Assembly: GCA_001782825.1 (NCBI GenBank)
Contig: MFPS01000006.1
Span: 3,351 to 67,350, forward strand
Source: Candidatus Magasanikbacteria bacterium RIFCSPHIGHO2_01_FULL_33_34
Lineage (GTDB): Bacteria > Patescibacteriota > Patescibacteriia > Magasanikbacterales > UBA922
Length of the DNA: 64,000 bases
Reading direction: 5' to 3'
The position numbers were made by a program, and so were the translations under genes. Below, in pieces: positions 5,780 to 36,005 of this stretch. Within the stretch, counting starts at the first letter, position 1. Each line of letters starts with the position of its first letter. The notes beneath the pieces are model-generated. The model was given only the letters and a program-made list of their open reading frames with translations. It did no database searches and was not told the DNA's origin.

Positions 5780-6763
5780 ATGTACAGAATATCAAAACAA
5801 ATCCACAATAAAATTATTGATGCAAAACATATACTATTAATCCCTCACCAAAATCCAGATGGTGATGCTCTTGGTAGTCTTACAGCTTTCAAACAATATT
5901 TACATAAAATAGACAAACCACATACAGCTTTTTGTGTGACAGATGTACCCCAAAACTTTAGAGACCTGCACCATGTAGATAGTATTAGCTCCGACCAATC
6001 AATTTGGCAAAATCCCAATATAGATGTGGTTATAGTATTTGATTCAGGAGATCTACACTATGCAGGAATTGATAAATATATAGCAAAATTACCAAAACAA
6101 GTTTATATCATAAATATTGACCATCACGCAACCAATGAAAATTATGGGCATTTAAACATGGTCATTACCAGCAGTAGTTCAACTGCAGAAACTTTGTATA
6201 ACTTTTTCAAACACAATGATATTGAAATTGACAACAAAATGGCTACCTCTCTCCTAGCTGGCCTAGTAACAGATACAGACTTTTATACCAATGGCGCAAC
6301 ATCTCTATCATCTCTACAAATCACATCAAAACTAATCTCACTAGGTGGTGATTTTGCCTTAATCAAAGATATAATATTCAAAAATAAAACAATCAATGTT
6401 TTGAAATTGTGGGGAATTGTATTATCCAGACTAAAAAAACATCAAGAAATTGATCTAGTCTACACTTATCTAACCCAAGAAGATTTAGATACTTATGGCG
6501 TATCTGAATCAATTTCTGATGGGATTTCAAATTTTTTGAACAATCTAAACGATGGTGAAGTATGTCTACTATTCAAAGAACTGCCCGACAACAAAATAAA
6601 AGGAAGTTTCCGAACCACCAAAGACAATGTTGATGTATCAGCTATAGCCAAAGAACTTGGCGGAGGTGGCCACAAAAAAGCCGCTGGCTTTACCATCGAC
6701 GGACCGCTCAAAGAGGCTGCCAGAACTGTATTTGAACTCATAAAAAATAAAAATCTCAACTAA
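5780..6763 (+). CDS. nrnA: DHH/DHHA1 phosphoesterase, NrnA-like oligoribonuclease/pAp phosphatase
   Basis: Motifs present: PDGDALGS, DHHATNENYG (DHH) and GGGGHKKAAGF (DHHA1). Confidence 0.85.
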   Translation: MYRISKQIHNKIIDAKHILLIPHQNPDGDALGSLTAFKQYLHKIDKPHTAFCVTDVPQNFRDLHHVDSISSDQSIWQNPNIDVVIVFDSGDLHYAGIDKYIAKLPKQVYIINIDHHATNENYGHLNMVITSSSSTAETLYNFFKHNDIEIDNKMATSLLAGLVTDTDFYTNGATSLSSLQITSKLISLGGDFALIKDIIFKNKTINVLKLWGIVLSRLKKHQEIDLVYTYLTQEDLDTYGVSESISDGISNFLNNLNDGEVCLLFKELPDNKIKGSFRTTKDNVDVSAIAKELGGGGHKKAAGFTIDGPLKEAARTVFELIKNKNLN

Positions 6764-6841
6764 AAAATATCTTTACAAACTGGTATCTTACTGCTAAAAT
6801 AAAATTAATATGTAATAATTAATAGTATTATTTATAATCAA

Positions 6842-6944
6842 GCATTAGTTTTAATTATTTGTTTTTACGGATTTGATGTCCCAACAGACATCACCCTCGG
6901 AGCCAAAGCGAGAATGAGTAAAAACAAATAATTAAAACTAATGC
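6842..6944. ncRNA. structured repeat element copy A: perfect 27-bp closing inverted repeat around a core of about 50 nt with two small hairpins (candidate small RNA or structured motif); second copy at about 52346-52425
   Basis: Left arm gcattagttttaattatttgtttttac (6842-6868) is the exact reverse complement of the right arm at 6918-6944. The core ggatttgatgtcccaacagacatcaccctcggagccaaagcgagaatgag contains a 7-bp hairpin tgatgtc/gacatca. The core is about 90% identical to 52361-52415. Confidence 0.45.
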
Positions 6945-7002
6945 GATCATGATTGAAAATATAAACAATATCAGTATAACTTATAACTAACAATAAAATA
7001 TT

Positions 7003-7602
7003 ATGCAAACAACAGAAATAAAAAACCAATACCTTATCCCTACTGTTATTGAAAAAACCAGTTATGGTGAAAGAGCGTATGATATATATTCTCGTTTACT
7101 CAAAGATAGAATTATTTTTCTTGGTAGCGCCATTGACGACGCTGTTGCCAATACTGTCATTGCTCAATTCTTGTTTTTGGAAAATCAAGATCCAGACAAA
7201 GATATAAAATTATATATCAATTCACCTGGAGGTTCAGTCACTTCTGGTATGGCCATATATGACACCATGCAATATATAAAACCAAATGTATCAACTATAT
7301 GTATTGGCATGGCCGCCAGTATGGCTTCAGTCCTTTTGACTGCCGGTGAAAAAGGCAAAAGATTTTGTCTACCAAATAGTGAAGTAATGATTCACCAAGT
7401 AATGGGCGGAACTGAAGGCCAAGCTTCCGACATAAAAATCCATGCCGAACGAATACTAAAAATGAAAGACAAACTTAATTCTATTTTAGCAAACCATACT
7501 GGACAAGATATAAAAACCATAGAAAAAGATTCTGATCGCGATAACTTTATGACAGCCGAAGAAGCGGTAAAATATGGATTGGTAGATAAAGTGATTAAAT
7601 AG
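7003..7602 (+). CDS. clpP: ATP-dependent Clp protease proteolytic subunit
   Basis: 199 aa. Contains the GMAASMAS active-site Ser region and the His/Asp context, with full-length similarity to ClpP. Confidence 0.95.
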
Positions 7603-8144: not shown

Positions 8145-10133
8145 TTATTCTACAATTATAAGTGAGTTTCCATCCCCATCATCTTCCAAAGGACACTCTG
8201 CCAAAGGCAAACCACTTTCATCAAAACAATTTTCAATCTTTTCTTCAACTCCTACCAAACAAATCTCTGGCAAAGGTCTATAATAACTCTCAAAAACTGT
8301 TTCTTCTACTTCTCCACTTGATAATTTTCTAACATACTTGAAACTTGCTTCTGCACCCTTAAACGCATGCTGACATTTTTCCGTACCTACAGGCAAACTG
8401 GTTGTTTCAATATATTGAGTTGGTCCAGTTGGTATCCACTTTTCTACCACTGGAGACTCATAATAACCACTCCGACCATCACTTGTTCCCCACAAAGTAA
8501 AGTATAATTTTTGTTCTTCCAAATCCATATAAGTCTGGATCAATATATGATTGCCAGTATCATTTTTAAATCTAAAATCAGGCGCTGGATCATAAAGCGT
8601 CGCATCAGTACCCGGCAAACCATTTTGTAAATCATTATAATAATTAACTACCAAAGAATGATTTCTTCTCTCTACAATAGGCATAGCAGAATTCATCGCC
8701 ATTCTAAACAATGTAGTTCCTATTTGACACAAACCACCACCAATCTCTGGCTTAATCTCGTCCCCCTTAATAACTAATTCTGGAAAATAACCGCCTTCTA
8801 TTGTATATGGTTTTGTATATTTAATTGCAGAAAACTCTTCATTTGGTTTCAACAATATCCCATTCAACTTGTCTACACCATTTTTTATATTTTTTATTCT
8901 ATTTTGTGGACTACCTGAAAAATCTGAAATGCCCACTCCCAAAATTTCTGTAATACCTAGATTATTTGCCTCACCAGTATTTACATTTGGCTCACTTTTT
9001 TTAGTTATCACTTGGACAATTTTAGCTATACCTTCATTATGAACACTCCTATCAATTATCGCTTGATTAATTGCCTCATAGGTCTTATCAATATCCAATT
9101 CAACTCCTGCGCGAGATCCTTGAAATTCCACTACCTTACCATCATCATCTACTTGAAACTTAGCATCTCTGGCATCTATATTAATTTTTGGTGAAACCAA
9201 TGTTTCTAAATAATCAACCACTAATTTTTTATTCAATCCAAAAGCCAAGTTTTTTTCTGATACATTGTGTACTTCAAGCCAATCAGAAATTTTACCAATA
9301 TCTATCAACCAATCATAGGCTACTTTAGTTTCTGGATTTTTGTATGTAATAGAAATATTACCATTATCAAACACACTTTCAAGTCTATTGGTTATATTAT
9401 TGACATCATTTTCTAAAACTGTCGGCAAAACTTCTTTATTATTTATATTTACATAAGGTACTTCCAATACTGACCATGCAAACTTCAACTTTGCAACTGT
9501 TTCTTCATACAAATATACATTTCCAACTGATGAGCTAGTTACTTCATAATCCAATGGATTTAAATTATTTATTTTTACAGAAGCATCCATTGGCATTACT
9601 TCATATTGGGCTAACTTTTCTGATATTTCATAAATAAGTTTATCCTTGTCTATAATTATATTTTTAAGTTTGATAGACGGTTTAGAAAAACGCATTTTTA
9701 CAAAATCAATTGACCGCAATAACAATCCATTGTCTTTTTTATAATTCATTATTCTTTCTACCTCACTATCAATATCAATATACATAAACTCAATAGCATT
9801 GTCTTCTGTAACAATAACTGGTTGTAACAAAAATTCTTTTTGCTGACCACTAAAATTAAAAGTAAAATGAAAACCTTCGCTTAATAATTTGTCACTCATT
9901 GAATGCAAAAAATTTTTAAGCTGACTCTCAGTCATACCACCAACAGAAACATTGCCAATATGCAATCCAGGAGCAACTTTATTGTTATAATCTTTTGCTT
10001 GTATCAAAATAACTGCCAACAAAAAACCAAACAATAAAAGCACTACTCCCAAAAATATAAAAACACGATGCCATTTAAATACCGCCCGCTCTTTCATAAA
10101 TTTTTTATCAAACAAATCAGCCATAATTAACAT
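8145..10133 (-). CDS. VanW family protein: N-terminal TM anchor, repeated extracytoplasmic domains, VanW domain, and a Cys-rich acidic C-terminal tail
   Basis: The TM segment is VFIFLGVVLLLFGFLLAVILI. The VanW-type core is GDEIKPEIGGGLCQIGTTLFRMAMNSAMPIVERRNHS. The C-terminal 60 aa contain 5 Cys and a DDGDGN motif. Confidence 0.75.
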   Translation of the reverse strand: MLIMADLFDKKFMKERAVFKWHRVFIFLGVVLLLFGFLLAVILIQAKDYNNKVAPGLHIGNVSVGGMTESQLKNFLHSMSDKLLSEGFHFTFNFSGQQKEFLLQPVIVTEDNAIEFMYIDIDSEVERIMNYKKDNGLLLRSIDFVKMRFSKPSIKLKNIIIDKDKLIYEISEKLAQYEVMPMDASVKINNLNPLDYEVTSSSVGNVYLYEETVAKLKFAWSVLEVPYVNINNKEVLPTVLENDVNNITNRLESVFDNGNISITYKNPETKVAYDWLIDIGKISDWLEVHNVSEKNLAFGLNKKLVVDYLETLVSPKINIDARDAKFQVDDDGKVVEFQGSRAGVELDIDKTYEAINQAIIDRSVHNEGIAKIVQVITKKSEPNVNTGEANNLGITEILGVGISDFSGSPQNRIKNIKNGVDKLNGILLKPNEEFSAIKYTKPYTIEGGYFPELVIKGDEIKPEIGGGLCQIGTTLFRMAMNSAMPIVERRNHSLVVNYYNDLQNGLPGTDATLYDPAPDFRFKNDTGNHILIQTYMDLEEQKLYFTLWGTSDGRSGYYESPVVEKWIPTGPTQYIETTSLPVGTEKCQHAFKGAEASFKYVRKLSSGEVEETVFESYYRPLPEICLVGVEEKIENCFDESGLPLAECPLEDDGDGNSLIIVE

Positions 10134-10284
10134 TTAAACATGAAAACATATAAACATTTCCGACCATTCTGTGGTACATTCCCTAGACTAAGTCATGAGG
10201 ATCTATTATACCACCATCGGATCTATAATCGGGTTTGGGATGACACATGTTTGTATGTTTATATGTTTAAATGTTTGTATGTTA
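10129..10284. repeat. inverted arms of an octamer tandem repeat (AAACATAY)n / (RTATGTTT)n flanking a 70-bp core that carries an extended -10 for the VanW-like gene
   Basis: Left arm aacatttaaacatgaaaacatataaacattt lies at 10129-10159. Right arm acatgtttgtatgtttatatgtttaaatgtttgtatgtta lies at 10245-10284. The core reads TGGTATAAT on the minus strand (ccaccatcgg... gives ggtggtataat when reverse-complemented). Confidence 0.6.
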
Positions 10285-10782
10285 ATTCTCCACCACTTTT
10301 ATTTTAATCTTTGAATCCATTTTTTTCTTTGGGATTAAAATAGATAAAATTCCATTTTCATATTTTGCTTTGGCACTATCCCCTTTTACATCTACTGGCA
10401 AAACTACTGTTCTAGAAAATTTACCCCAAAAACATTCTTGATGAATAAAATTACCGTCCCCAATTTCATCTTTTGGCATAACTCGTTCGCCTTTTATAGT
10501 AAGCAAATCATTGTGAACATAAACTTCAATCCTAGAGGCATTGGCCCCAGCCATGGTTGATAATACTACAATATTTTTGTCATTATTGATGACATCAATC
10601 GCCAGTTGACCTTCTTGGTGATCTTCATGCCAATCATCTATAGTAGACTTTTCTGATAACACGGCTGACGCAAACATTGGTCTGTCTTTGGAAATATTTT
10701 TGGGATCAAAAACATAATCCCCTCCTGCGGACTTCAAAATCATCTCAAATACATCCCCATCTTTTTTATCTTGATTATACAT
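10282..10782 (-). CDS. Hsp20/alpha-crystallin family small heat-shock protein
   Basis: 166 aa. The alpha-crystallin domain region (IEVYVHNDLLTIKGER...YENGILSILIPKK) matches the IbpA/Hsp20 pattern. Confidence 0.85.
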   Translation of the reverse strand: MYNQDKKDGDVFEMILKSAGGDYVFDPKNISKDRPMFASAVLSEKSTIDDWHEDHQEGQLAIDVINNDKNIVVLSTMAGANASRIEVYVHNDLLTIKGERVMPKDEIGDGNFIHQECFWGKFSRTVVLPVDVKGDSAKAKYENGILSILIPKKKMDSKIKIKVVEN

Positions 10783-10847
10783 ATTTTTCTACTTTTATTT
10801 ATATATAATACCATAAATATTCAAACATATAAACATTTATCTTTATA

Positions 10848-10876
10848 TATTGACTTTCAACGAAAAATATAGTAAT
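10848..10876 (+). promoter_or_regulatory. candidate promoter TTGACT-N17-TAATAT upstream of the tRNA at 10964
   Basis: ttgact (10848-10853), a 17-nt spacer, then taatat (10871-10876), about 88 bp upstream of the tRNA. Confidence 0.4.
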
Positions 10877-10963
10877 ATCTGTCTATAAATACACCCTATT
10901 TTAACTACCAATTACATAAAATAGTTGCATCATGCTGTGTATATCATGCATCATGAATTTCAT

Positions 10964-11050
10964 GGAGAGATGGCCGAGTGGTTTAAGGCAGCAGTTTACT
11001 AAACTGCCGGGCTCGCAAGGGCCTCTAGAGTTCGAATCTCTATCTCTCCG
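10964..11050 (+). tRNA. class-II tRNA (long variable arm, G73; Ser-type) with anticodon loop TTACTAA, so the apparent anticodon is ACU; no encoded CCA
   Basis: Acceptor GGAGAGA/TCTCTCC (7 bp), a 3-bp D stem GCC/GGC, anticodon stem GCAGT/ACTGC, long variable arm GGGCTCGCAAGGGCC, and T arm TAGAG-TTCGAAT-CTCTA. Confidence 0.75.
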
Positions 11051-11095
11051 CTCTCACCCGCCGAAGCTTTAGCGAAGGCAGGCAACCAACAATGT

Positions 11096-11437
11096 ATGTT
11101 AATCAAAAAATCAGAAGCAAGAAAAAAACAAGCCTCCCCAGATTGTGCTGTTTGGGAGTATGAATATCCCAGCAAAAATTTTAGTTTTGCAACTTCGTTT
11201 ATTAACGGTCGCTATCCACAAGAACAAAAAGCAAGCAATACAAAATGCGAAGAAGTATATTATGTTATTTCCGGATCTGGCAAAGTCCATTCGGACAAAG
11301 GCGATTTTGTTATAAACCCTGGTGATTTATACTTTTTTGAAAAGGGAGAGATTTATTGGGTTGAAGGCAAACAATTATTGCTCTCTATAGTCAACGCTCC
11401 AGCTTGGACTCCGGAGCAGCACAAAATAATTGACTAA
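11096..11437 (+). CDS. cupin-domain protein
   Basis: 113 aa. The small beta-barrel pattern (VYYVISGSGKVHSDKGDFVINPGDLYFFEKGEIYWVEG) is typical of cupin_2. Confidence 0.55.
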   Translation: MLIKKSEARKKQASPDCAVWEYEYPSKNFSFATSFINGRYPQEQKASNTKCEEVYYVISGSGKVHSDKGDFVINPGDLYFFEKGEIYWVEGKQLLLSIVNAPAWTPEQHKIID

Positions 11438-11491
11438 ATCCTTATTTTAAGCGAAAATATTCTAGTCTTTGGCATTTAAAAGCCAACACCT

Positions 11492-11579
<88 letters not shown>

Positions 11580-11697
11580 AATTGTACTTTTTGCGAAATT
11601 GAAAAGATTCCAAAAAAACAAAACCTCCCACAACACATAGTCAAGCTATGTATTAATGAGAGGCGGAAACCACAAAGTTAAAGCATATTCAAGTCCC

Positions 11698-12105
11698 TCA
11701 CTCCTCTTTGCAAGGGCGCAAAGCTATAGCGTAATCATGTAATAACTCATCTTCCATTCTACGAAAAAAATGTTCTAGCCCACCTTCCTTATGATACGTC
11801 AGGCACGCCACAGTAGCCGGACCACCACCAGGTAGATGACAATCAGTAAATAGAAAAACCCCATCAGGAAATTTACTTAATACTTGTTGATGATAACTCG
11901 TTACATGACGCAAATGATCCTCTCCCACATTTGCACGCATTCTTTCAATTCTACCAACTATATCACCAAATTGAGCTCCTGTATCTTTCAAAATGATCGC
12001 TTCATACACACGCACATCACCAGTCTCATTACACCCAATAGATAATTTAAATATCTCTGTGTCTACCATGTTTTTCCCCTTGCTTTCTTTTTGTTGTGAT
12101 TTCAT
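11698..12105 (-). CDS. hypothetical protein (135 aa); family not recognised
   Basis: ORF with a plausible K-rich N-terminus. It carries CHLPGGGPATVAC and HLRHVTSYH motifs, with no confident family match. Confidence 0.45.
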   Translation of the reverse strand: MKSQQKESKGKNMVDTEIFKLSIGCNETGDVRVYEAIILKDTGAQFGDIVGRIERMRANVGEDHLRHVTSYHQQVLSKFPDGVFLFTDCHLPGGGPATVACLTYHKEGGLEHFFRRMEDELLHDYAIALRPCKEE

Positions 12106-12222
12106 CTACCAAAAGTAGATAAAATATAATATTATATTTTATACAATTTGTCAAGTTATAATATTTAATTGATTTAAGTATGCAAAAATGATATATTTAG
12201 TATATATATTTAATCATTAAAT

Positions 12223-13017
12223 ATGAATTTACCTTCTATCTCTCAACTCATCAATCTTAACAACAAAACCGCTATTGTAACTGGTGGCGCAATGGGTATA
12301 GGTTTTGGCATTGCCTATCGTCTAGCCGAAGCTGGAGCTAATGTAGTGATTGCCGATATCAATAATGAAGTAGGAAAAAACGCTGCAAAAAAATTAAATG
12401 ACAATGGCTGGAAAGCAGTCTTTGTAAAAACTGATGCTGCAAATGAAAAAAATGTAAAACAAACAGTTGAATTTACTATAAAAACTTATGGCGATATCAA
12501 TATATTGGTAAATAATGCCGGTATTTATCCAATCACACCTATCAAACAAATGCTACTAAGTGATTTTGAAAAAATCATGGCAGCCAACCTAAAAAGTGTT
12601 TTTATGTTTACCAAAGCAGTTACTGAAATAATGATTAAACAAGGCAATGGTGGCAAAATAATTAATATTACATCAATTGATGCCTTACATCCTTCATCTG
12701 TAGGACTAGCTGCATATGATGCTTCCAAACACGGGCTATGGGGTTTCACCAAAAATACAGCTCTAGAATTTGCATCAAACAATATACAAATCAATGCCAT
12801 AGCACCTGGCGGTATTAGTACACCAGGTACAGGGGCTGGCAAACCAACAACTCCAGAAATGAAAGTCATCCTTAAAAAATTCTTGAACAAAATCCCAATG
12901 AAACGTATGGGCGAACCAGATGACATTGGAAAAGTTGCCCTATTTCTTGCTTCTGACCTTTCAAGTTATATGACAGGTTCACAGATTGTAGTTGATGGTG
13001 GTGTTCTACTTTCTTAA
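12223..13017 (+). CDS. SDR family NAD(P)-dependent oxidoreductase (FabG/glucose-1-dehydrogenase-like)
   Basis: TGGAMGIGFGIA Rossmann motif, NNAG, and catalytic YDASKHG (YxxxK). Confidence 0.85.
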   Translation: MNLPSISQLINLNNKTAIVTGGAMGIGFGIAYRLAEAGANVVIADINNEVGKNAAKKLNDNGWKAVFVKTDAANEKNVKQTVEFTIKTYGDINILVNNAGIYPITPIKQMLLSDFEKIMAANLKSVFMFTKAVTEIMIKQGNGGKIINITSIDALHPSSVGLAAYDASKHGLWGFTKNTALEFASNNIQINAIAPGGISTPGTGAGKPTTPEMKVILKKFLNKIPMKRMGEPDDIGKVALFLASDLSSYMTGSQIVVDGGVLLS

Positions 13018-13097
13018 ATATAAATAATTAATCATAATTTAATATCTAATATAAAGAAGCCCTAGAACGGGGCTTCTTGTGAAACAACAAATTTTAC

Positions 13098-13838
13098 TTA
13101 CCATATTACTCCAATACCAAATGACAAACGAATTTCATTTTTACTATAGAATAAATCTGTTTCAAAATGTACTGGTTCAATATTAATATCAAGTGTACTA
13201 ATGCTACCTGGATATGTCTCATTACTAACATCATTAGGCAAATAAACAGTTGCCAATTCCGTCCCCAACACATAAAGATCATGAACATTATGAGTATAAA
13301 TAATTCTCCATTCATAAGCCATACCCGTTCTAAGTTCAATGTTTGTATTGAGTACCAATCTCGAACCAAAGTTCAAGTCTACATCATAACGAATTAACGG
13401 CGCTGACAGACTTGGTATGAAAATAAAAAACTTTTCCTTCTTGATTGAGATAACCTCAGCCAATCCCATTGTAAGTTCATTAACAATATTTTCACTAGAA
13501 TAAATCGTTCTGGTACCTGACAGCAAAGCTGACAAACCAAAACGAAAAAACTTATTTGGATTGGTAATAGTAAGCCTCAAACCTGTATAACGCTTACCTT
13601 TTCTTTCGCCATTGAGTATATAGCTACGTGATCTGGCAACAGTTATGTCATGTCCGCTACCCATAGTATATTTTTGCAAATGCTTTTTTTCTTCTTTTTT
13701 ATTTTTTACATCAGGAGTATTTTTATCCTGAATAGAAACCTCGCCACCACCTGGCAAATAATCCAAAAAAGTTGTCATCTTGCCTTGAGTAGAAATACAG
13801 CCAATAAAAAGAACATAAAAAACACATAAAAATTTCAC
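13098..13838 (-). CDS. secreted or lipoprotein-like beta-rich protein with a C-terminal aromatic residue (beta-barrel-like)
   Basis: The N-terminus MKFLCVFYVLFIGCIS is a signal or lipobox-like. The sequence has alternating hydrophobic beta-strand patterning and ends ...RLSFGIGVIW. Confidence 0.45.
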   Translation of the reverse strand: MKFLCVFYVLFIGCISTQGKMTTFLDYLPGGGEVSIQDKNTPDVKNKKEEKKHLQKYTMGSGHDITVARSRSYILNGERKGKRYTGLRLTITNPNKFFRFGLSALLSGTRTIYSSENIVNELTMGLAEVISIKKEKFFIFIPSLSAPLIRYDVDLNFGSRLVLNTNIELRTGMAYEWRIIYTHNVHDLYVLGTELATVYLPNDVSNETYPGSISTLDINIEPVHFETDLFYSKNEIRLSFGIGVIW

Positions 13839-13957
13839 GTTTTCCTCCTATAAAAGTAAATTGTTGTCCTATTAATTACTATAGCATTAAAAAATATCAC
13901 TAGCAAATTTATATATTGACAATCAATAAAATATAGGATATTATGTTAAAGATCAAT

Positions 13958-14047
13958 GGAAGGGTGGCAGAGCGGTCGAATGCGACGGTCTTGAAAACCG
14001 TTGAGCCTGAAAGGGTTCCGTGGGTTCGAATCCCACCCCTTCCGCCA
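13958..14047 (+). tRNA. tRNA-Ser (anticodon UGA), class II, CCA encoded
   Basis: Acceptor GGAAGGG/CCCTTCC, D stem GCA/TGC, anticodon stem-loop ACGGT-CTTGAAA-ACCGT, long variable arm, T arm GTGGG-TTCGAAT-CCCAC, G73, then CCA. Confidence 0.85.
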
Positions 14048-20535: not shown

Positions 20536-23500
20536 TTAATTATTCTTTTTTCCAGAATTAGGTGAACCTGGTTTTTCCTCTGATTTTGCTTTCAATTCTT
20601 CTACATTTATTTCTATTACCACATCATCTGAAACAATTGTTCTTTTACCAACTGTTTGACCATTTAATTTTTCATTGGCAAATTCAGCTAATTCTACTAT
20701 GCTCGCTTTTTGCACATCCTCACCCTTTATTTTAGCCACACCCAGTTGTTCAAGTCCAGTTCGCCATGCTTCAATCGCTTGCCTTCTACCTATAGTATCT
20801 TTTGCATCTAATGCATTATACCTATTGGCAAACTGTTGCATCCAGAGTGCAAGGGTAGTTTTCATTTCATCTGCTACTTGAAATTCTTTTCCATCATAAG
20901 CGACATCTGATGTTGATCCAGTTGTAAGTCCATTAAATATAGTTTTTTCCATTTGCGCTATTTTTTCAGCTGTCATTTTACTAGCAATTGCCATTAATTC
21001 TTCATAGGCTTGTTCATGTTTTAATCTAACAGCTCTACCACCCTGTAAAACACTATATGCTCTACCGTCTTTTATGCCATATCTACTAAATGAAGGTCTG
21101 GCCATCATGTTTTCTTGATATTCTCGCCATGTACTACCATCTTGATATGTACCTGTACCCAAAACTTTACCTTTACCAGCTCCAGCTTTCATATTATTGG
21201 TCATACCAAATGCACGCCTACCAAACTCATCAACACCTTCAGAAACCTGCATATATGATTCAGTTGATGTTAAACTTCTTGATGCAGAATTTAAACCTTG
21301 ACCAAGCATTCTAAACAATCTAGAATCTTTTTCTTTAAACCTTTGATGCATTTCATCTTCTACTTCTTTAAATCCTGCATCATCTTTTACATCATCCCAT
21401 TTTCTACCAGTAATAATCGCTGCAATTACTCTACCAATATTTTCTGAAGTATTGACTTTTACATCAGCAAATGAACTATCCAAATCTGCTGATAAACCTG
21501 GTATAACACCAGAATATTCTTTAGCAAAAACAGCCATATCTCTACTTAAAGATTGAGACAATGATTCTCTTGCTTTTTTATCTGCAACCGTAAATCTATC
21601 ATTTGGATCTTTTTTATCTTCTTTTTCATTTAATTTCTGAAGTTGCTTATATCTTTTTTGTATATCCCTTTCTAATTGCTCATACTCACGTTTATTATCC
21701 TCAAACTCTTGAAAAGCCTGTTTTTCTTCCCACATCCTCAATCTATCGGTTGATTTGCCTTCTATACCTCTAAAAACATCCGCCAATCTAGCCTTTTCTT
21801 TTTCATATTCAGTAATAAATTTTCTACCCCTAGTACCAGCTTTATATGATTCATACTCACCGCCCAACATAGCCACATTATCATATACACCATCTCTTTC
21901 ATAAGCTTCTGATCTTTCTTTGTCATCTATAGAGTCAACAATATATTTATCTACAACTTTTTCCTTAGTATCTGGGAAACTTTCCATAATTTTATGTACT
22001 TTCTGTTCTTTTTCTGTTACTGCTGTAGAATTTTTTGCCCAATCAATACCATACTTTTCTATCATCTCTTTATCAATTTTACTTATTTTTTCCTTTCTTA
22101 CTTTCTCAAGTATTTCATCTGCTTGGTTTGATGTTTTTATTTCACTTGTCTCTTTTTTATTTTTATTTATTTTTTCCTTTGTCTCAGCTCTTTTCATTTG
22201 CTCAGCAATTTTAGCATTTTTATCTATAACATCTAAACTTTCCCATGTACCATCACCCTCTTTATCATTCATAGCTTTCCTCAATCCACTCTCTATATCA
22301 TCCATAAGTTCTGCCATCAACTGATCAGCTTTAATTTGTCGCGCATAATCTATATAAGCTTCTTCCTGATCTGCTGATGTCATCCCTGCTTTCTTTTTAC
22401 TTACCAATTTTTTATTAGAAGCTACCATTTTATCTTCAACTTCTTTTTGTTCTAATTTTAAATAACTATGTTTAAACATGCCCTGAATTTCATCCATTCT
22501 GGCTTTTGCAGAACCCCTCTCTTCTTCTGCATACATACCTCCTAAAATTGTTGAAATCAAACGAGTACCAGAAGCTGCTTCTCTATCAATTTCTCTCTTT
22601 TTGGCTTTATACTCTTTGAGAGCCTCCTGTTTTGGTGCTGCTGCAGTAGACATACTTGACAATGAGCTTCTCATACCTGCCAAAGCTTCTTCTCTTTCCT
22701 TGTCAGTTCTAGCTGTTGTAAATGAAGCCAATGAACTTTGCAAACCTAATTCTGGTGTTTGTTCTATTTTTTCAATCATCTTACGAGCCTCAATACCCTT
22801 ACCACTTCTAACCAAATCTTGTACTTTTTTATATTTACGAATAATTTTTGGACTAACTGTTTTGTCTTTTTCCATTTTGTCAATTGCAGACGCTATTCTT
22901 TCTTCTTCATAATTTTCTTTTTCCATTTTTGCACGCATTATACCTTCTGATTCCAATCCTTCAATTATACTATTTGCTGTCATAAGATCATCATTATTAA
23001 CAGCCTTTTCTAATTCTTTGTACTTAGTATAATTTATATCTTTCTTTGGTTCTAATTCTTGAACAGCAGAAATAGCAACTTCTTTTGACTCTTCTTTATC
23101 TAAAGTAGCACCTATATCTAACAAAGCTTTATCTGCTTCATCCTTATCTGCATTAAAAATACTTTTTTGTAAATTTTCTCTTAATTTCAATTTACCAGCA
23201 TCTTTTGGTAAACTTATTTTTGATAACGCACTATTAGCTTCTGCCCAATCACCACTTTCTATTGCTTTTACTACCTTGTCATACTCATCACTCTCTCTAG
23301 CTTTAATTGCATTACGAATAGCTTCGCGTATAGGAGCAGTATCTTCTGCCTCAACACCATGGTCACGTTCTAATTCATCCAAACTTTTTTCAGCTACACT
23401 AAATTTACCCGCTTTTACAAGATCAACTACATTAGTTACGGCTTCTCTTTTGCTATCTTGTGTAGCATCTCCAATAATATCCAAAATTTGTTTTTTATCA

Positions 23501-25449
23501 TCCACTTCAGTTAAATCTGTATTACCTATTACTCTCTTCAAATCAGCAATAACTCCAATTTGCTCATCTGATTCAGCTGCTTTAATTTTCATATCAAGTT
23601 CTCCCATTTCAATTCTAGCTTTTTCATCTCCAGAAATTGCACCAGCAATTTCTTGATGAACGGACATAATAGGACTTTTCTTTTTAATAACTTCTACTGC
23701 TTTTGTTATTTCTTCTCCATCACCACTATCAATAGCCTTCTGAAGTTGTCCATAATCAAATCTATCATCCATTTCTTTTTCAATATCTTTCCACGCGCCC
23801 TCATAATCAGTATAATTACCAGCTGTAATTGCTTTTTGCAAATTATCAAAAAGTTCATTGTTTCCACCAGCATCTTTTAATGCTGTACTAATATCAATTC
23901 CTACCATTGCTTTAATTTTTTCGATATGATTCTTTGAATCTGTTTCCATATCTTCTCTATAAAAAGCTTTTGTAGCAGAATCCTTTAATCTTTGTTTTTT
24001 TGCTGATTTTCTTTGCTCTGCTAATTCTGTAGATGCTAATTGTCGTCCTAATTTTTCATCAGATGCACCCCAAAAACCAGCCCCTTGAGTTGCTGAAATT
24101 TCTTTTCCTTTAGCCTCTTTCAATTCATCAAGTCTAGACAACGCATTCCTTCGTCTTTGTGGTATATTCATAAATTGGCCCAATCTACTTTTTGGATCCA
24201 TTCTTTTTTCATGTAATTTATCTGATATACCAGTCTTACTATACGCCAATCTGGCTGTACCCTTAGCATAACCACCAACACCCTTTAATGCACGATCACC
24301 CTTTTCTAAACCTTTATCAACCAACCACCTACCAGCAGCATAACCAGATGCAATGGTAGCAGCTTTCTTTGTGAAATCCATTGCCTTACTTGTAAGACCA
24401 CCACCCACTACACCCATTCTGCCCACCATTTGAATGCCAACAATAAAAAAACCAAGCGCAATAAAATAACTTGCCAAACTTTCCCATGTACTAGCTGCGC
24501 TAGCCGATATACTAGGATCACCACTTGTACTTCCAGCTTGTGTTAACTTACTCACCTGAAGATTAATATCACTAGCAATATTAGCTGATTGCAGAGATGC
24601 AAAAGCTAACCAAGTAAAAAATACCATGACAGGACCAACCATCGCATAATTAAAAAAATTTTTCCAAAATTCACTAGAATAACCCTTTCCAAAAGGAAAA
24701 GCAGACAAAACAAAGGCCAATGGAGACAAAATCATCAACATCCACAATACTATCATTCTACCAATCATCACTATCAAATAGGCCCCCATCGTCAACATTA
24801 CCAGTAATGCCATTATAAATGAAACTACCGCCCCTATAAATAAATCAAATCTCAAACTACTGTTACTAATATCTCTATTACGTGTCATTTCAAGCAAAGT
24901 ATCAAACCTAAAAATATTTATCAAATTACCACCTGATTGCCCCTTGAAAGCCACCAAAAAAGTATCCATCAATATCTGCGCAAAATCAAGCACCAACTGC
25001 AAAATAAGTTTACTAAAATTAATGAATATGGCAGCGAATATCAATTTGACCAATGATTTTTTCCACTCATATTGTTCTACACCCAAAACTGTGCCAATCG
25101 CTATCACCATAAGAGCCACAATGAAAAACATATTGGCAAAATCCCTGATCATCACCCACCCAATAGTAACCGGTGGCGCATTCATAAAATCATTGTAAGC
25201 TGCGAGCTCAATAAAATATTCCCAACTCCACAGTGTAACATCCATACACAATCGAGCCAACCAAAATAATATTTGAGATACTACAGATATTAATCCATTT
25301 ATAATATCATTCAAAAATTCACCAGCATGAACAGAAACAAATGTTACAGACAAACCAACAGACACAAACAATACGAAAAATAAAGCCATCGTTTTTTGAT
25401 TTCTCTTTATTTTCCAAAAATTCTTAAATTTTAAGGCTATATTTTTCAT
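20536..25449 (-). CDS. VirB6/TrbL-like polytopic membrane protein with a hydrophilic charged/coiled-coil C-terminal extension of about 1250 aa
   Basis: The first 350 aa or so carry at least 7 predicted TM helices (e.g. IGWVMIRDFANMFFIVALMVIAIGTVL, IGAVVSFIMALLVMLTMGAYLIVMIGRMIVLWMLMILSPLAFVLSAF). The remainder is E/K/D/A-rich with no TM segments. The giant gene stop lies 10 bp upstream. Confidence 0.6.
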   Translation of the reverse strand: MKNIALKFKNFWKIKRNQKTMALFFVLFVSVGLSVTFVSVHAGEFLNDIINGLISVVSQILFWLARLCMDVTLWSWEYFIELAAYNDFMNAPPVTIGWVMIRDFANMFFIVALMVIAIGTVLGVEQYEWKKSLVKLIFAAIFINFSKLILQLVLDFAQILMDTFLVAFKGQSGGNLINIFRFDTLLEMTRNRDISNSSLRFDLFIGAVVSFIMALLVMLTMGAYLIVMIGRMIVLWMLMILSPLAFVLSAFPFGKGYSSEFWKNFFNYAMVGPVMVFFTWLAFASLQSANIASDINLQVSKLTQAGSTSGDPSISASAASTWESLASYFIALGFFIVGIQMVGRMGVVGGGLTSKAMDFTKKAATIASGYAAGRWLVDKGLEKGDRALKGVGGYAKGTARLAYSKTGISDKLHEKRMDPKSRLGQFMNIPQRRRNALSRLDELKEAKGKEISATQGAGFWGASDEKLGRQLASTELAEQRKSAKKQRLKDSATKAFYREDMETDSKNHIEKIKAMVGIDISTALKDAGGNNELFDNLQKAITAGNYTDYEGAWKDIEKEMDDRFDYGQLQKAIDSGDGEEITKAVEVIKKKSPIMSVHQEIAGAISGDEKARIEMGELDMKIKAAESDEQIGVIADLKRVIGNTDLTEVDDKKQILDIIGDATQDSKREAVTNVVDLVKAGKFSVAEKSLDELERDHGVEAEDTAPIREAIRNAIKARESDEYDKVVKAIESGDWAEANSALSKISLPKDAGKLKLRENLQKSIFNADKDEADKALLDIGATLDKEESKEVAISAVQELEPKKDINYTKYKELEKAVNNDDLMTANSIIEGLESEGIMRAKMEKENYEEERIASAIDKMEKDKTVSPKIIRKYKKVQDLVRSGKGIEARKMIEKIEQTPELGLQSSLASFTTARTDKEREEALAGMRSSLSSMSTAAAPKQEALKEYKAKKREIDREAASGTRLISTILGGMYAEEERGSAKARMDEIQGMFKHSYLKLEQKEVEDKMVASNKKLVSKKKAGMTSADQEEAYIDYARQIKADQLMAELMDDIESGLRKAMNDKEGDGTWESLDVIDKNAKIAEQMKRAETKEKINKNKKETSEIKTSNQADEILEKVRKEKISKIDKEMIEKYGIDWAKNSTAVTEKEQKVHKIMESFPDTKEKVVDKYIVDSIDDKERSEAYERDGVYDNVAMLGGEYESYKAGTRGRKFITEYEKEKARLADVFRGIEGKSTDRLRMWEEKQAFQEFEDNKREYEQLERDIQKRYKQLQKLNEKEDKKDPNDRFTVADKKARESLSQSLSRDMAVFAKEYSGVIPGLSADLDSSFADVKVNTSENIGRVIAAIITGRKWDDVKDDAGFKEVEDEMHQRFKEKDSRLFRMLGQGLNSASRSLTSTESYMQVSEGVDEFGRRAFGMTNNMKAGAGKGKVLGTGTYQDGSTWREYQENMMARPSFSRYGIKDGRAYSVLQGGRAVRLKHEQAYEELMAIASKMTAEKIAQMEKTIFNGLTTGSTSDVAYDGKEFQVADEMKTTLALWMQQFANRYNALDAKDTIGRRQAIEAWRTGLEQLGVAKIKGEDVQKASIVELAEFANEKLNGQTVGKRTIVSDDVVIEINVEELKAKSEEKPGSPNSGKKNN

Positions 25450-25458
25450 TTTTTGATA

Positions 25459-28400
25459 CTAAAATTCTTCTGAAGGTATAATGATTATATTACCTCTATA
25501 AGTTGTCCACGGAGTTGGTACTACACCTAATATTGGTGGTACACTACCAACATCTCTCCAAGCACACTCAGTTGCCACATCACCTGAATAACAAAATGGT
25601 CCGCCAGCTTCAGGATTTGCAGGATCGTCCGGACACCAACCATTACAATAACCCCAATTATCCAATACTTGTACACGTGGTTTAAACTGACACAAAGTAT
25701 AATCTACATCATTGGAGCTCAAATTTATCTGATCTGCAATATCTACTGACAAATTATAATTTGTAACTTCATTCAATATGATACTTTGTACATCAGAATC
25801 CAATGAACCAAATGTAATATGCGCATCAATCATAGTAGCTGTACATCTATAAGCATGTTCAAATTCAAATGGTTCAATCGTACAAGCCCGAGGTGCATTA
25901 CCAAATCTTGGCATAGCATATGTTTCAAGATCTGTTCCACCCAAAGCAAGTAACTCTTGTGTTGACATACAATCTGGATTGGTAAGCAATGGATCATCAC
26001 CAGCTTCAATAATAGACAATGGTTCAACCACATTGAAATTTTCTGGACAATCACTATCTTCTTCACAAGTAATACTAGAAGGTATATGTTTACCCTGAAA
26101 ATTCATTTTACATACAGGAACAACTTCATCTCCATTTCCACCATTTGCACAAAATGGTTTACTATTTTTGTATAAGCCTAATTTATTTTCATTGGTTATT
26201 GTACTACCATCCCCCCAATCTACAGAAACTTTCCTAATAGGCATACGATTGTCATCAGCATGCGCAAAAAATTTGACATTGGCAGTATAAGTATCAACTG
26301 AAGCTATATCAGAAGCTGCTGACCTCTCAACACTACTTATTTGACCATCATTATTATAATCTTTTAGCTCTCCAGTCGCCAAACCAACGGAAAAACTGTT
26401 ATATTCAGCCACTGTACAATCAGCCCCTTCATTCACATCATCATCTTCAGAACAAAATACTGGATTCAATGAATAAACTGCTGGTTGAGTAAGATATTCT
26501 GTAAATGAATACTCTGGAATAGGCTCACAAAATTCACAAGGCTGATGTGCTGGACGCCTTATAATAGTTTGTGCTCCATAAATTGTATTACTACGATCTA
26601 GATCAGCTAGAGGTAAAACAGCGTCAACATATTGTAATCCAGGATTTGCTCCTGCTTCATCCAAATTAACTACCCTAAATTGTTTCACAAATAACTCAAA
26701 TAATGCATCATGTGCATACCATGGCATAAGATAATAAACTGGATCATACACTTGCATACGTCCAATAGTTGATACTACACGACTGCCATTATATTCCTGA
26801 CCAACAGTTTGTCTAAATGCAAAAGTATTTCTATAAATAGTTGACTCATACGGCGCGAAAGGACAACTTCTTATATATAAATTAAGTGGTACAGATCTAA
26901 CTAAAGCATCGGCATATGACAGATTGCAAGAATATGGTATACCATCTACAAATGGATCTTGAAAACTGAAGTTCAATAACGTAGTATTATCAAGGTCACT
27001 AAGAAAATCAGCCGAAAGTCCCAATGATCCATAAGGTGCAAGTATATTATTTCTACTTACCAAAGGATATGATGATGTATCATCTGTACCAAAAGATTCT
27101 TGATCAATCGTTGCATCACGAGCAAAAGGATGAGCAAATGGCGTACCATCAATATTTCTAGCCAAAGACCAAACTCTATTTGTCCAAGCTTTATTGATAG
27201 TTCTAGCTGTACCAAAAGCTGATCTGTCATATACCTGTACTATTTCTCTACATTGAGTAGCTAAATCAGCAAATACAGCAAAACCTATACCTGATCCAAG
27301 TGATGCATTTTCATTATGAGTTAAAACATTATCAGCTGTATAACCATTACACCATTTTGTGGTATACCCAAGAAATTCTCCATTCTCTCCAAAATTAACT
27401 GATACTGCCCACCATGGATTATAATGTGCATTCTCTTCATTATCATTACTATAACCACCTCCAACATAACCCCTTTGGCAATCTGTTTGGAATGGATCAT
27501 TGACTGCAGATTGTGGTACAAAAGGCTCTGGTTGTCCTTCTGATAATATACCATTCATAAACATTGGTGCAACAGTCCTATAACCAAAAGGATCACTGGA
27601 ATCATACTTTAAGGCACCAGAAGTTTGATTTGCAAAAAACACTAAAATATATTTCTTTACTACATCTGGCTCATCCGGATAAAACAAAGAAGACTGATCC
27701 GAATTATTACGATCAAGAACATATCTCCACATCAATAAATGATTTTGTGAAAAGGATACAGGATCAGTTTTGCTAAATGTCATTGGATCACCATAATAAA
27801 TTGAAGTTTTATTTCTCAAAGAGAAATTTACTATATAATAGCCATAACCACTATTATTAAAATAGTCACTATCTGTATAATAATCACTATCTTTTCTAAT
27901 AACAACACCAGAAAACGGTACAATTGAACCATTAATATTCCCATCATTACTAGCTAAAGCTTTGATTGGCAAACGCAATACTTCATTATCCCATCTTTCT
28001 GTCCAATTGGACATATTTGGATCACCTAAATCAAGAATTGTCCTAGGAACAGCCCCGCGCAAAGTTCCTTTATAAACAGTTGGGATAAAGTAAAAATCAT
28101 TTACAGAATATTCATTAATAAAATTATCAGCTGTATTAAAATTATAAAGCCCACCATACTCACTAGTATCATTTACAACACCATCGTCATCAGTATCCAA
28201 ATCAACTGGATGAGTACGCCTATCAAAACCACCATTTTGAATTTCATATATATCAACACCTGGATTACCCCCAACCCATGGTGCAAATCGCCAAGGTGCC
28301 GTAGTACCATTTAAATCAAGGTCTTTATTTGGGTTATATTCCACTCGCAATGGTATAGCATTATTACCTATTCTATTCCAAGCATATGAAGTAAATAATT

Positions 28401-35849: not shown

Positions 35850-35956
35850 GTTTATCTAATTTAGACCTGAACCATTATCACTTTAGATTGTTCTTTATTA
35901 TTATACCAAAAAATACTAAAACAAAATAGAGATAATCGTGGATAAGTGTTTGCATA

Positions 35957-35988
35957 AAAACATACAAACATATAAACATATAAACACA
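35957..35988. repeat. octamer tandem repeat (AAACATAY)n, in the promoter region of the 35196-35849 gene
   Basis: aaaaacatacaaacatataaacatataaacac. On the minus strand the array ends 45 bp upstream of an extended -10 TGGTATAAT (plus-strand 35904-35912). Confidence 0.6.
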
Positions 35989-36005
35989 GAAGTAATCCTA
36001 AAAAT

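What the first reader, a model, noticed from the sequence alone, without database searches (positions are those of the whole stretch)
6842..6944. Twice-occurring structured element of about 100 nt, with compensatory base-pair change and independently evolved closing helices
Copy A has a perfect 27-bp closing inverted repeat. Copy B (52346-52425) shares the 50-nt core at about 90% identity but has different, still complementary, flanks. The inner hairpin differs by a paired change (tgatgTc/gAcatca versus tgatgCc/gGcatca), which preserves pairing. This pattern is what is expected of a selected RNA secondary structure, not of a protein. Both copies sit just downstream of plus-strand genes and upstream of heat-shock genes (clpP, groES). 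The element has no T-run, so it is not a simple terminator. A shared peptide frame of about 20 aa exists but lacks a start codon in copy A.
Basis: seen in the sequence. Interest (0 to 1): 0.6.

Follow-up and report, generated by a model that had tools for sequence, protein, structure and literature searches.

The report
Replication-oriented structured intergenic repeat family
The two look-alike 100-nt hairpins are members of a family of at least 22 non-coding intergenic repeats in one Candidatus Magasanikbacteria genome; their branched fold is kept by many compensatory changes and all point the same way relative to DNA replication, so this looks like a new REPIN/MITE-like element and not a heat-shock RNA switch.

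Summary
Both copies exist, the core is 46/51 identical, copy A has a perfect 27-bp closing helix, and the inner hairpin differs by a compensated pair.

The two copies are not a private pair. A pattern scan, nhmmer and a covariance model found 22 distinct copies in about 170 kb of the same species, a Candidatus Magasanikbacteria with a roughly 1.17-Mb genome. None was found in related species, species-representative genomes, phages, plasmids or Rfam.

- **Two subfamilies.** Type A is about 190 nt (window 6804-6993). Type B is about 105 nt (window 52333-52437). Either type can carry an extra GC hairpin.
- **Shared fold.** A long closing helix is capped by a three-way junction with conserved loops. 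95% of pair cells are paired, although mean identity between copies is 71%. 28 of 38 pairs show double changes, and 0 of 500 shuffles reach the observed values.
- **Position and orientation.** Copies fill intergenic spacers next to unrelated genes, in either orientation to them. All 22 have their sense strand on the C-rich (lagging) strand.
- **Missing features.** I found no target duplications, no transposase and no conserved reading frame.
- **groES.** It has its own CIRCE-like operator.

Best reading: a new REPIN/MITE-like structured repeat that spreads through a strand-specific, replication-linked step. A host RNA function is not excluded.

The parts
6804..6993 (+). Full type-A element (about 190 nt): outer arms, 27-bp inner helix P1 and the 51-nt core
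   Evidence: nhmmer with a profile of family members matches 6804-6993, score 177.5. Conservation among 10 full-length copies starts near TGTAA and ends near CTTA(C/T)A.
6804..6841 (+). Left outer arm. It is conserved between copies but only loosely complementary to the right outer arm. It contains a promoter-like ATGTAA(6810-6815)-N17-TATAAT(6833-6838).
   Evidence: Family consensus tTgTAAaAATT.AaAac.TTATTTATAAT. Arm-to-arm alignment. In AT-rich DNA such promoter matches are expected by chance (3 found, 2.4 in shuffles).
6842..6868 (+). P1, 5' strand of the 27-bp closing helix
   Evidence: Pairs perfectly with 6918-6944. 22 of 27 P1 pairs show double-sided changes across the family.
6869..6873 (+). 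Junction J1/2, GGATT, nearly invariant
   Evidence: Alignments A3 and A5.
6874..6893 (+). P2 hairpin: stem 6874-6880 with 6887-6893, loop CCAACA at 6881-6886
   Evidence: 6 of 7 pairs show compensatory double changes. There are about 10 different stem sequences, and the loop is conserved as NCAAYA.
6896..6912 (+). P3 hairpin: stem CTCG/CGAG (6896-6899 with 6909-6912), 9-nt loop GAGCCAAAG
   Evidence: The stem is invariant except for two G-C to G·U changes. The loop GAGCCnnAG is conserved.
6913..6917 (+). Junction J3/1, AATGA. In 9 of the other copies the optional hairpin P4 (CCTGCCTGCCGGCAGGCAGG) sits between AAT and GA. It is absent from both window copies.
   Evidence: P4 is never found outside the element.
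6918..6944 (+). P1, 3' strand
6945..6993 (+). Right outer arm. It ends 9 nt before the clpP start codon at 7003.
   Evidence: Family consensus aTCaTGaTT.AAAaTATAAA.AAt...cTATTaTA.CTTA. ORF positions.
52333..52437 (+). Full type-B element (about 105 nt): 24-nt arms (52333-52356 and 52414-52437), a GA/GA internal loop plus two G-C pairs, and the core
   Evidence: Covariance-model match 52331-52437, 104.6 bits. The B-type arms AATTAATGATTAGAGATTATTAT recur in L060, L062 and L067.
52360..52410 (+). Core of copy B: P2 at 52366-52385, P3 at 52388-52404
   Evidence: 46/51 identical to 6868-6918.

Best explanation
Copies A and B belong to two subfamilies of a non-coding interspersed repeat. The repeat is specific to one Candidatus Magasanikbacteria species and probably has a few dozen copies per genome of about 1.17 Mb.

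Each copy folds, as a single strand, into a long AT-rich closing helix capped by a conserved GC-rich three-way junction. With the optional P4 hairpin the junction is four-way.

I think it is most likely a REPIN/MITE-like non-autonomous element. On this reading the folded single strand is what the propagating machinery recognises, which would explain why loops and junctions are conserved while stems covary. New copies would be laid down in intergenic spacers by a strand-specific step tied to the replication fork, which would explain why every copy has the same polarity relative to replication.

**Shown:** the family, the fold and its covariation, the strictly intergenic location, the lack of any link to flanking gene function or direction, and the replication polarity.

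**Inferred:** mobility, a single-stranded intermediate, and coupling to the replication fork.

Its position next to clpP and groES is incidental.
For: - **Family size.** There are 22 distinct copies: 2 in the window, 19 in the metagenome loci L056-L067 and 1 in L091. The loci come from the same species as the window. Their IleS, MurE and GT2 proteins sit on the same 1,167,158-bp contig as the window's ClpP and Wzy proteins.
- **Narrow distribution.** No copy was found in 5 loci from 3 related species. No true match was found in 185,579 species-representative genomes, where only chance or coding matches came back. Viral contigs, phages and plasmids gave nothing.
- **Fold.** 95% of pair cells are paired although mean identity between copies is 71%. 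28 of 38 pairs show double changes, and 0 of 500 shuffles reach the observed values. Even between nearest-neighbour copies, compensated changes (67) outnumber breaking ones (39).
- **Location.** Copies fill intergenic spacers, with gaps of -28 to +47 nt to at least one adjoining ORF for most copies. The 5' neighbour is co-oriented for 10 of 21 copies.
- **Polarity.** In all 12 loci, and so for all 22 copies, the sense strand lies on the C-rich strand (sign test p = 5e-4 by loci, 5e-7 by copies). Contig Ga0155850_17 carries both orientations, and the GC skew flips with them.
- **Family dynamics.** Chimeric copies (L059, L064b), the optional P4 module in both subfamilies and tandem A+B copies (L060) are typical of a repeat family in flux.
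- **Precedents.** REPIN hairpins commonly show compensatory changes (PMC3116915). IS200/IS605 elements and several other IS families have replication-linked orientation (PMC5027513, PMC3971601).
Against: - No target-site duplication or sharp conserved end was found in 10 A-type and 6 B-type copies.
- No transposase was found. No Y1/RAYT homologue occurs in the roughly 230 kb held at that point (window plus loci L001-L011 and L056-L071). Among homologues of a related species' RayT-like protein, none lies on this species' 1.17-Mb contig.
- No presence/absence polymorphism was seen. The sampled population is nearly clonal.
- No empty site is available, because the nearest relative is too distant (Wzy 57% identical).
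- 71% mean identity with 95% pairing also fits long-term selection on each copy where it sits, which would mean a host function.
- G·U pairs exceed A·C pairs on the sense strand (19:5, or 14:4 without degenerate copies, p = 0.03). This suggests that the strand that folds is the one on the leading-strand template. That is the opposite of the IS608 model, in which the active strand lies on the lagging-strand template.
Confidence: 0.5

Rival explanations
1. A structured RNA module that serves the host. It would be either a multi-copy small RNA gene with its own promoter in the left arm, or a polar RNA signal (processing site, stabiliser or terminator) that forms only in transcripts running against replication. 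Each copy would be kept by selection where it sits.
For: - Strong covariation and conserved loops despite 71% mean identity.
- A G·U over A·C excess on the sense strand, 19:5.
- A conserved TATAAT, with TTGTAA 17 nt upstream in several copies, placed so that transcription would start at the first paired base of P1. A -10-like hexamer sits at the same place in B-type copies.
- A tandem G·A internal loop in B-type P1, a typical RNA motif.
- 10 of 21 copies lie just downstream of a co-oriented (lagging-strand) gene, against 31% expected (p = 0.08).
Against: - There is no terminator or U-tract.
- Promoter-like hexamers are at chance level in this AT-rich DNA.
- The orientation ignores the neighbouring genes.
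- All copies would be transcribed head-on to replication, which would be unusual for a gene family.
- The family was not found in related species.
- No Rfam family matches.
Confidence: 0.3
2. A classical cut-and-paste MITE, derived from a DDE insertion sequence and moved in trans by that element's transposase, which binds the terminal inverted repeats.
For: - Small, AT-rich, non-coding, multi-copy and intergenic, with inverted terminal sequences: TGTAAG...CTTACA in type A and AATTAAT...ATTAATT in type B.
- Several DDE IS families also show replication-linked orientation bias (PMC3971601).
Against: - No target-site duplications.
- No longer element with the same ends, and no solo ends, in the DNA held.
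- The most conserved part is the asymmetric central core, not the termini.
- Covariation in the internal P2 hairpin has no role in double-stranded recognition of terminal repeats.
Confidence: 0.1
3. A heat-shock cis-regulatory RNA (thermosensor or leader) shared by clpP and groES.
For: Both window copies lie upstream of chaperone or protease genes and are co-oriented with them.
Against: - 20 other copies flank unrelated genes in either orientation.
- The element is absent upstream of clpP in three related species.
- Copy B lies about 390 nt from groES. A separate hairpin followed by T9, a promoter-like site (52711-52738) and a CIRCE-like operator (52750-52776) all lie between them.
- The hsp20 gene in the window has no copy.
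Confidence: 0.03
4. A small protein of about 20 aa encoded by the shared frame.
For: Copy B and most B-type copies have an in-frame ATG.
Against: - Four of the five A/B differences change the amino acid.
- L060b would encode an unrelated peptide.
- A 20-nt insertion (P4) and 1-nt length variants of P2 shift the frame in many copies.
- A-type copies have no start codon.
Confidence: 0.01

Closest known systems
REPINs / REP elements mobilised by RAYT (Y1 HUH) transposases (PMC3116915, PMC3337134)
   Same: Short, non-coding, extragenic and multi-copy. They persist within one lineage, form a long hairpin as single-stranded DNA or RNA, and commonly show compensatory changes on the two sides of the hairpin. 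They make no target duplications.
   Different: - In REPINs the conserved parts are the two terminal REP 16-mers and the middle varies. Here the conserved part is an asymmetric, non-palindromic central three-way junction and the arms vary.
- There is no GTAG or CGTC tag.
- No RAYT was found in the DNA sampled.
- The copy number is far lower.
- Polarity relative to replication is strict.
IS200/IS605-family elements and their miniature derivatives (PATEs), which transpose as single-stranded DNA at the replication fork (PMC5027513)
   Same: Orientation is locked to the direction of replication. Recognition is of folded single-stranded hairpins, not duplex sequence. No target duplications are made.
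   Different: - Those elements have no terminal inverted repeats. They carry two separate subterminal hairpins on one strand and insert 3' of a fixed tetra- or pentanucleotide.
- Here the whole element is one long palindrome around a branched core.
- The strand that appears to fold (G·U excess) lies on the leading-strand template, not the lagging-strand template.
- No TnpA was found.
Bacterial MITE-like repeats that are transcribed and fold, such as Correia/NEMIS, ERIC, RUP, BOX and Rickettsia RPE (from my own knowledge; not tested here)
   Same: 100-200 nt, intergenic, with inverted ends and stable predicted hairpins. They sit right next to gene starts and ends.
   Different: - No sequence similarity was found.
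- There are no target duplications (Correia elements duplicate TA).
- To my knowledge those families lack a strict replication polarity or this degree of covariation in a branched core.
Integron attC sites, such as the Vibrio VCR repeats (PMC5371416)
   Same: Imperfect palindromes of about 60-140 nt in which structure, not sequence, is conserved. They are strand-specific, can have a branched variable tip, lie between genes, and their orientation relative to replication matters.
   Different: - The RYYYAAC/GTTRRRY boxes are absent.
- The copies are not in a cassette array next to an integrase. They are scattered among housekeeping genes over several hundred kb.

Membership tests
Any Rfam 15 RNA family | Covariance-model score at or above the family's gathering threshold | tested here: not met
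   At gathering thresholds the whole window gives only three tRNAs. Permissive searches around both copies return only generic long-hairpin noise far below threshold, for example MIR9746 at 30.5 of 79 bits and WsnRNA46 at 19.5 of 65.3 bits.
REP/REPIN-RAYT | Extragenic multi-copy hairpin-forming doublet with compensatory changes | tested here: met
   22 intergenic copies. 28 of 38 pairs show double-sided changes. REPIN property as described in PMC3116915.
REP/REPIN-RAYT | Conserved terminal REP motif of 20-40 nt carrying a GTAG or CGTC tag (PMC3733652) | tested here: not met
   The ends are TGTAAG...CTTACA (type A) or AATTAAT...ATTAATT (type B). The termini are less conserved than the centre.
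REP/REPIN-RAYT | A RAYT (Y1 transposase) gene in the same genome, flanked by the repeats | tested here: inconclusive
   tblastn with a related species' Y1_Tnp protein finds nothing in the roughly 230 kb held at that point. None of its 41 database homologues lies on this species' 1,167,158-bp contig. Only about a fifth of the genome was available, and the protein search depends on shared words.
IS200/IS605-derived miniature element | Orientation bias relative to replication | tested here: met
   12 of 12 loci and 22 of 22 copies have the sense strand on the C-rich strand.
IS200/IS605-derived miniature element | No terminal inverted repeats; distinct subterminal hairpins at the left and right ends on the same strand | tested here: not met
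   The element is a single long palindrome around one core.
IS200/IS605-derived miniature element | Insertion 3' of a fixed tetra- or pentanucleotide, without target duplication | tested here: inconclusive
   No duplications are seen. An AAATTAAT-like sequence abuts several left ends, but it is itself palindromic and cannot be told apart from an extension of the arm.
DDE-type MITE | Terminal inverted repeats | tested here: met
DDE-type MITE | Target-site duplications flanking each copy | tested here: not met
   The flanks of 10 A-type and 6 B-type copies show no consistent direct repeat.
DDE-type MITE | A parent insertion sequence with the same ends | tested here: inconclusive
   nhmmer and covariance-model searches of the DNA held found no solo arms and no longer elements. 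The rest of the genome was not available.
Intrinsic terminator | G+C-rich stem followed by a T-run | tested here: not met
   0 terminator-like sites in 6700-7100. The closing stem is AT-rich and no T-run follows it.
Heat-shock cis-element (CIRCE/HrcA type or RNA thermosensor of a heat-shock regulon) | Association with heat-shock genes across copies and across relatives | tested here: not met
   Only 2 of 22 copies are near chaperone or protease genes. The element is absent upstream of clpP in relatives. A separate CIRCE-like site lies at 52750-52776.
Independent small-RNA gene | A discrete transcript with its own start and end | not testable with these tools
   No expression data are available. 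Promoter-like hexamers are conserved but are at chance level in this composition.

The most novel reading that the evidence does not exclude
The element is not merely selfish DNA. It may be a replication-polar, structure-selected signal kept at dozens of intergenic sites in a minimal CPR (candidate phyla radiation) genome. Examples would be an RNA structure that forms only in transcripts running head-on to the fork and stops or processes them, or a folded strand used by the replisome. Alternatively it may be a new kind of mobile element that needs neither a recognisable transposase nor target duplications and that regenerates perfectly complementary arms at each copying.
Probability: 0.2. Interest if true: 0.8.

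Novelty: new variant of a known kind. Interest (0 to 1): 0.5.

Why it matters
CPR/Patescibacteria genomes are small and tightly packed, and their non-coding content is almost undescribed. A family of a few dozen structured repeats has three features that together make it an unusually clean natural case:

- textbook-quality covariation;
- a conserved branched core;
- perfect polarity relative to replication.

It could be used to ask how such repeats spread and persist, and whether streamlined symbiont-like bacteria use them. It may also point to an uncharacterised strand-specific mobilisation route, or to a polar RNA or DNA signal.

In practical terms, the result removes a tempting but wrong 'heat-shock riboregulator' annotation. 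It also explains an assembly mis-join at the repeat.

Tried and rejected
- **Rfam.** Gathering and permissive thresholds on the window and on both copies gave only tRNAs and hairpin noise.
- **Species-representative genomes.** The pattern TTTGATG-N8-12-CATCACCCTCGG gave 44 hits. All were chance or protein-coding motifs in unrelated phyla, with no flank similarity and no covariance-model hit among the five of them searched (L012, L016, L022, L028, L054). This species is evidently not in that collection.
- **Other collections.** Viral contig scans gave chance matches only. Phage and plasmid BLAST gave no match.
- **Synteny test upstream of clpP.** The element is absent in three related species, but their spacers are too diverged to define an empty site.
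- **Empty-site test at copy B.** The nearest Wzy homologue outside the species is only 57% identical.
- **Strain polymorphism.** All sampled contigs are 99.9-100% identical and carry both copies. The apparent variant in L005 is a scaffold mis-join with an N gap at the left end of the element.
- **Target-site duplications.** None are consistent.
- **Y1/RAYT transposase.** None was found in the DNA held or linked to this genome.
- **P4 as an independent mini-element.** It never occurs outside the repeat.
- **Strand assignment by the G·U versus A·C count.**
  - 19:5 on the model-fitted alignment.
  - 14:4 without degenerate copies (p = 0.03).
  - 22:18 over whole arms in a strand-neutral alignment.
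  - Overall this is suggestive only.
- **Transition versus transversion test of compensated changes.** 30 versus 35, which is uninformative.
- **Promoter scans.** Matches are at chance level.
- **Literature.** No description of this element was found.

Full report

- The 51-nt core occurs exactly twice in the window, at 6868-6918 and 52360-52410. The two are 46/51 identical, and no match is expected by chance.
- Copy A is closed by a perfect 27-bp helix, 6842-6868 with 6918-6944. It folds at -43.2 kcal/mol, z = -9.7.
- Copy B has different arms that are still complementary (z = -4.1).
- The inner hairpin differs by a compensated pair.
- There is no T-run terminator.
- The neighbours are a DHH phosphoesterase and ClpP for copy A, and a Wzy_C protein and GroES/GroEL for copy B.

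**2. Where the window comes from.** It is part of contig MFPW01000009.1 of a Candidatus Magasanikbacteria MAG (GCA_001782875.1, Rifle aquifer; CPR/Patescibacteria). Identical proteins also lie on a 1,167,158-bp contig, presumably a near-complete genome.

**3. The two copies belong to a family.**

- A scan of JGI metagenome contigs with TCACCCTCGGAGCCNNNGCGAGA gave 16 hits on three long contigs of 504, 203 and 326 kb. After removing duplicated loci, 10 are distinct.
- These contigs are the same species as the window. Their IleS, MurE and GT2 proteins are the NCBI A2725_* proteins and lie on the same 1.17-Mb contig.
- nhmmer and a covariance model (R1) then found further, more diverged copies next to the seeds. 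A further copy turned up 5.4 kb beyond the right end of the window.
- In total there are 22 distinct copies in about 170 kb of unique sequence. The window has only the two.
- Strict-pattern copies run at about one per 60-70 kb, and about half of all copies match the strict pattern. I therefore estimate a few dozen copies per genome.

**4. Distribution outside the species.**

- The model finds nothing in five loci from three related Magasanikbacteria whose ClpP is 86-96% identical. Their DHH-clpP spacers are 98-680 nt and lack the element.
- A pattern scan of 185,579 species-representative genomes returned only chance or coding matches.
- Viral contigs, phage records and plasmid records gave nothing.
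- Rfam 15 has no matching family.
- I found no description in the literature.

**5. Anatomy.** There are two subfamilies.

- *Type A (window 6804-6993, about 190 nt).* It has outer arms that are conserved between copies but only loosely complementary (5'-TGTAAG...CTTACA-3'). Inside these is a 27-bp inner helix P1, and then the core.
- *Type B (window 52333-52437, about 105 nt).* It has 21-24-nt arms, typically AATTAAT...ATTAATT. Next to the junction sit a 2x2 G·A-type internal loop and two G-C pairs.
- *The core.* It reads J1/2 GGAU(U), then P2 (7 or 8 bp, loop NCAAYA), then J2/3 C(C), then P3 (CUCG/CGAG, loop GAGCCnnAG), then J3/1 AAU-GA.
- *Optional hairpin.* Nine copies, from both subfamilies, carry an extra perfect 20-nt hairpin P4 (CCTGCCTGCCGGCAGGCAGG) between AAU and GA. 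It makes the junction four-way and never occurs outside the element.
- *Irregular copies.* Chimeric copies exist: L059 has an A-type 5' arm and a B-like 3' arm, and L064b is also chimeric. A and B copies can lie in tandem, as in L060.

**6. The structure is under constraint.**

- On the model-based alignment of 21 copies, 95.0% of pair cells form standard pairs, against 73% when shuffled.
- 28 of 38 pairs have changes on both sides.
- The covariation score is 0.507, against 0.149 shuffled (0 of 500 shuffles reach it) and 0.04-0.10 when the partners are slid by 1-3 columns.
- A plain MAFFT alignment gives the same direction of result. RNAalifold predicts the same P1, P2 and P3 on its own.
- P2 alone has about ten different, fully complementary stem sequences under a conserved loop.
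- Mean identity between copies is only 71%.
- Even between nearest neighbours, compensated double changes (67) outnumber pair-breaking ones (39).
- Three of the A-type copies aligned have flawless 27-bp P1 helices (a fourth, in L091, was found later), and five B-type copies have flawless 21-24-bp arms. The helix sequences differ from copy to copy.

No reading frame survives the 20-nt and 1-nt length variants, so the peptide idea is rejected.

**7. Which strand folds, and is it RNA or DNA?** This is not settled.

- That alignment was fitted to a sense-strand model. A strand-neutral comparison of whole arms gives 22:18.
- Both strands fold about equally well.
- Compensated changes are transitions and transversions in equal measure (30:35), which does not discriminate between the models.

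**8. Relation to genes.**

- Copies are strictly intergenic and nearly fill their spacers. For most copies the gap to at least one adjoining ORF is -28 to +47 nt.
- Start codons of clpP, ileS, murE and others lie 3-15 nt from an element end.
- The neighbours are unrelated housekeeping and envelope genes.
- The gene on the 5' side is co-oriented for 10 of 21 copies. 31% would be expected from the gene-strand bias (p = 0.08).
- The heat-shock link therefore does not hold.
- In addition, groES has a promoter-like site (52711-52738) and a CIRCE-like operator TTATCACTC-N9-GAGTGATAA (52750-52776) downstream of copy B. A separate strong hairpin followed by T9 lies between copy B and that promoter.

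**9. Polarity relative to replication.** This is the most unusual feature.

- In all 12 independent loci, and so for all 22 copies, the sense strand of the element lies on the C-rich strand. The sign test gives p = 5e-4 by loci and 5e-7 by copies.
- This holds whether the local genes lie on the same strand as the element (L056, L057, L063, both window copies) or on the other strand (L059, L062, L064, L091).
- All copies on the 504-kb contig and all on the 203-kb contig share one orientation.
- The 326-kb contig joins sequence from both. It carries both orientations, and the GC skew flips with them.
- By the usual rule that the leading strand is G-rich, the sense strand is the lagging-strand sequence.

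**10. Interpretation.** The element has these properties:

- it is restricted to one lineage;
- it is multi-copy and non-coding;
- it is confined to spacers and indifferent to its neighbours;
- it comes in subfamilies, with a modular insertion and chimeras;
- it is locked to the direction of replication.

That profile fits an interspersed repeat laid down by a strand-specific, replication-coupled process. There are precedents. IS200/IS605 elements transpose as single strands at the fork (PMC5027513), and several other IS families show family-specific replication bias (PMC3971601). REPINs are the closest analogue in form: non-autonomous hairpin elements in which compensatory changes are common (PMC3116915).

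I therefore rank 'REPIN/MITE-like structured element moved through a single-stranded intermediate' first, at 0.5. Mobility itself is inferred. I found no target duplications, no transposase, no polymorphism and no usable empty site.

The element also fails defining features of each known family:

- it has no GTAG/CGTC tag, and its centre is more conserved than its ends (unlike REP);
- it is one palindrome, not two subterminal hairpins (unlike IS200/IS605);
- it makes no duplications (unlike a DDE-type MITE).

The main rival, at 0.3, is a host-serving RNA. That could be an independent small RNA started from the conserved TATAAT just upstream of P1, or a polar signal acting in head-on transcripts. 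High pairing despite 71% identity fits selection on each copy. Against it are the uniform head-on orientation, the absence of a terminator and the narrow distribution.

**11. Verdict.**

- The structural reading is supported.
- The heat-shock reading is rejected.
- The thing itself is a previously undescribed, structure-constrained, replication-polar interspersed repeat family in a CPR bacterium. It is a new variant of the REP/REPIN/MITE kind.
- Interest is moderate (0.5). It would be higher if the polarity reflects a function or a new mobilisation route.

Noticed in passing
window 52750-52776 (+): A CIRCE-like inverted repeat, TTATCACTC-N9-GAGTGATAA, with 2 mismatches to the HrcA operator consensus. 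It lies between a promoter-like TTGACT-16-TAAAAT (52711-52738) and the groES start codon at 52801. It is the only such site in the window.
   Followed up: partly
window 52545-52672 (+): A single-copy, very stable long hairpin (-55 kcal/mol, z = -8.5) whose 18-bp base is followed by T9. It lies between copy B and the groES promoter. It has no Rfam match. JGI annotates a 250-nt gene with an 11-residue product on the minus strand here (L088 3950-4199). It may be an unrecognised small RNA or a strong bidirectional terminator.
   Followed up: partly
L007 11300-12215 (relative, GCA_030690205.1): A 184-aa Y1 transposase (a database homologue is named RayT) lies downstream of clpP. It is flanked by G+C-rich repeats of about 60 nt in inverted orientation. 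This looks like a REP/RAYT system in a related Magasanikbacterium, unrelated in sequence to the element studied.
   Followed up: partly
L091 7380-7455 versus L092 5300-5390 (about 2-3 kb beyond the right end of the window): Two assemblies that share identical genes diverge exactly at the 3' end of a tRNA gene (anticodon GTT by eye). One carries DUF87, PDDEXK_1 and TauE genes instead. This looks like a strain-variable island integrated at the tRNA.
   Followed up: no
L005 440-528: This metagenome scaffold has a mis-join with a run of N exactly at the left end of element A. The repeat family evidently confuses assembly.
   Followed up: yes
window 10129-10289 and 35951-36243: Short AACATATAAACA / ATGTTTGTATG-type repeats, tandem and dispersed, in two intergenic regions. 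One of them is next to the hsp20 gene.
   Followed up: no
window 20536-35139 (-): Two adjacent giant ORFs of 1637 and 3226 aa. I did not examine them.
   Followed up: no
window 10964-14047 (+): Three tRNA-Ser genes (anticodons ACT, GCT and TGA as reported by ARAGORN) lie within 3 kb. Conserved promoter-like sequence precedes two of them (repeat D17: 10842-10878 and 13908-13944).
   Followed up: no
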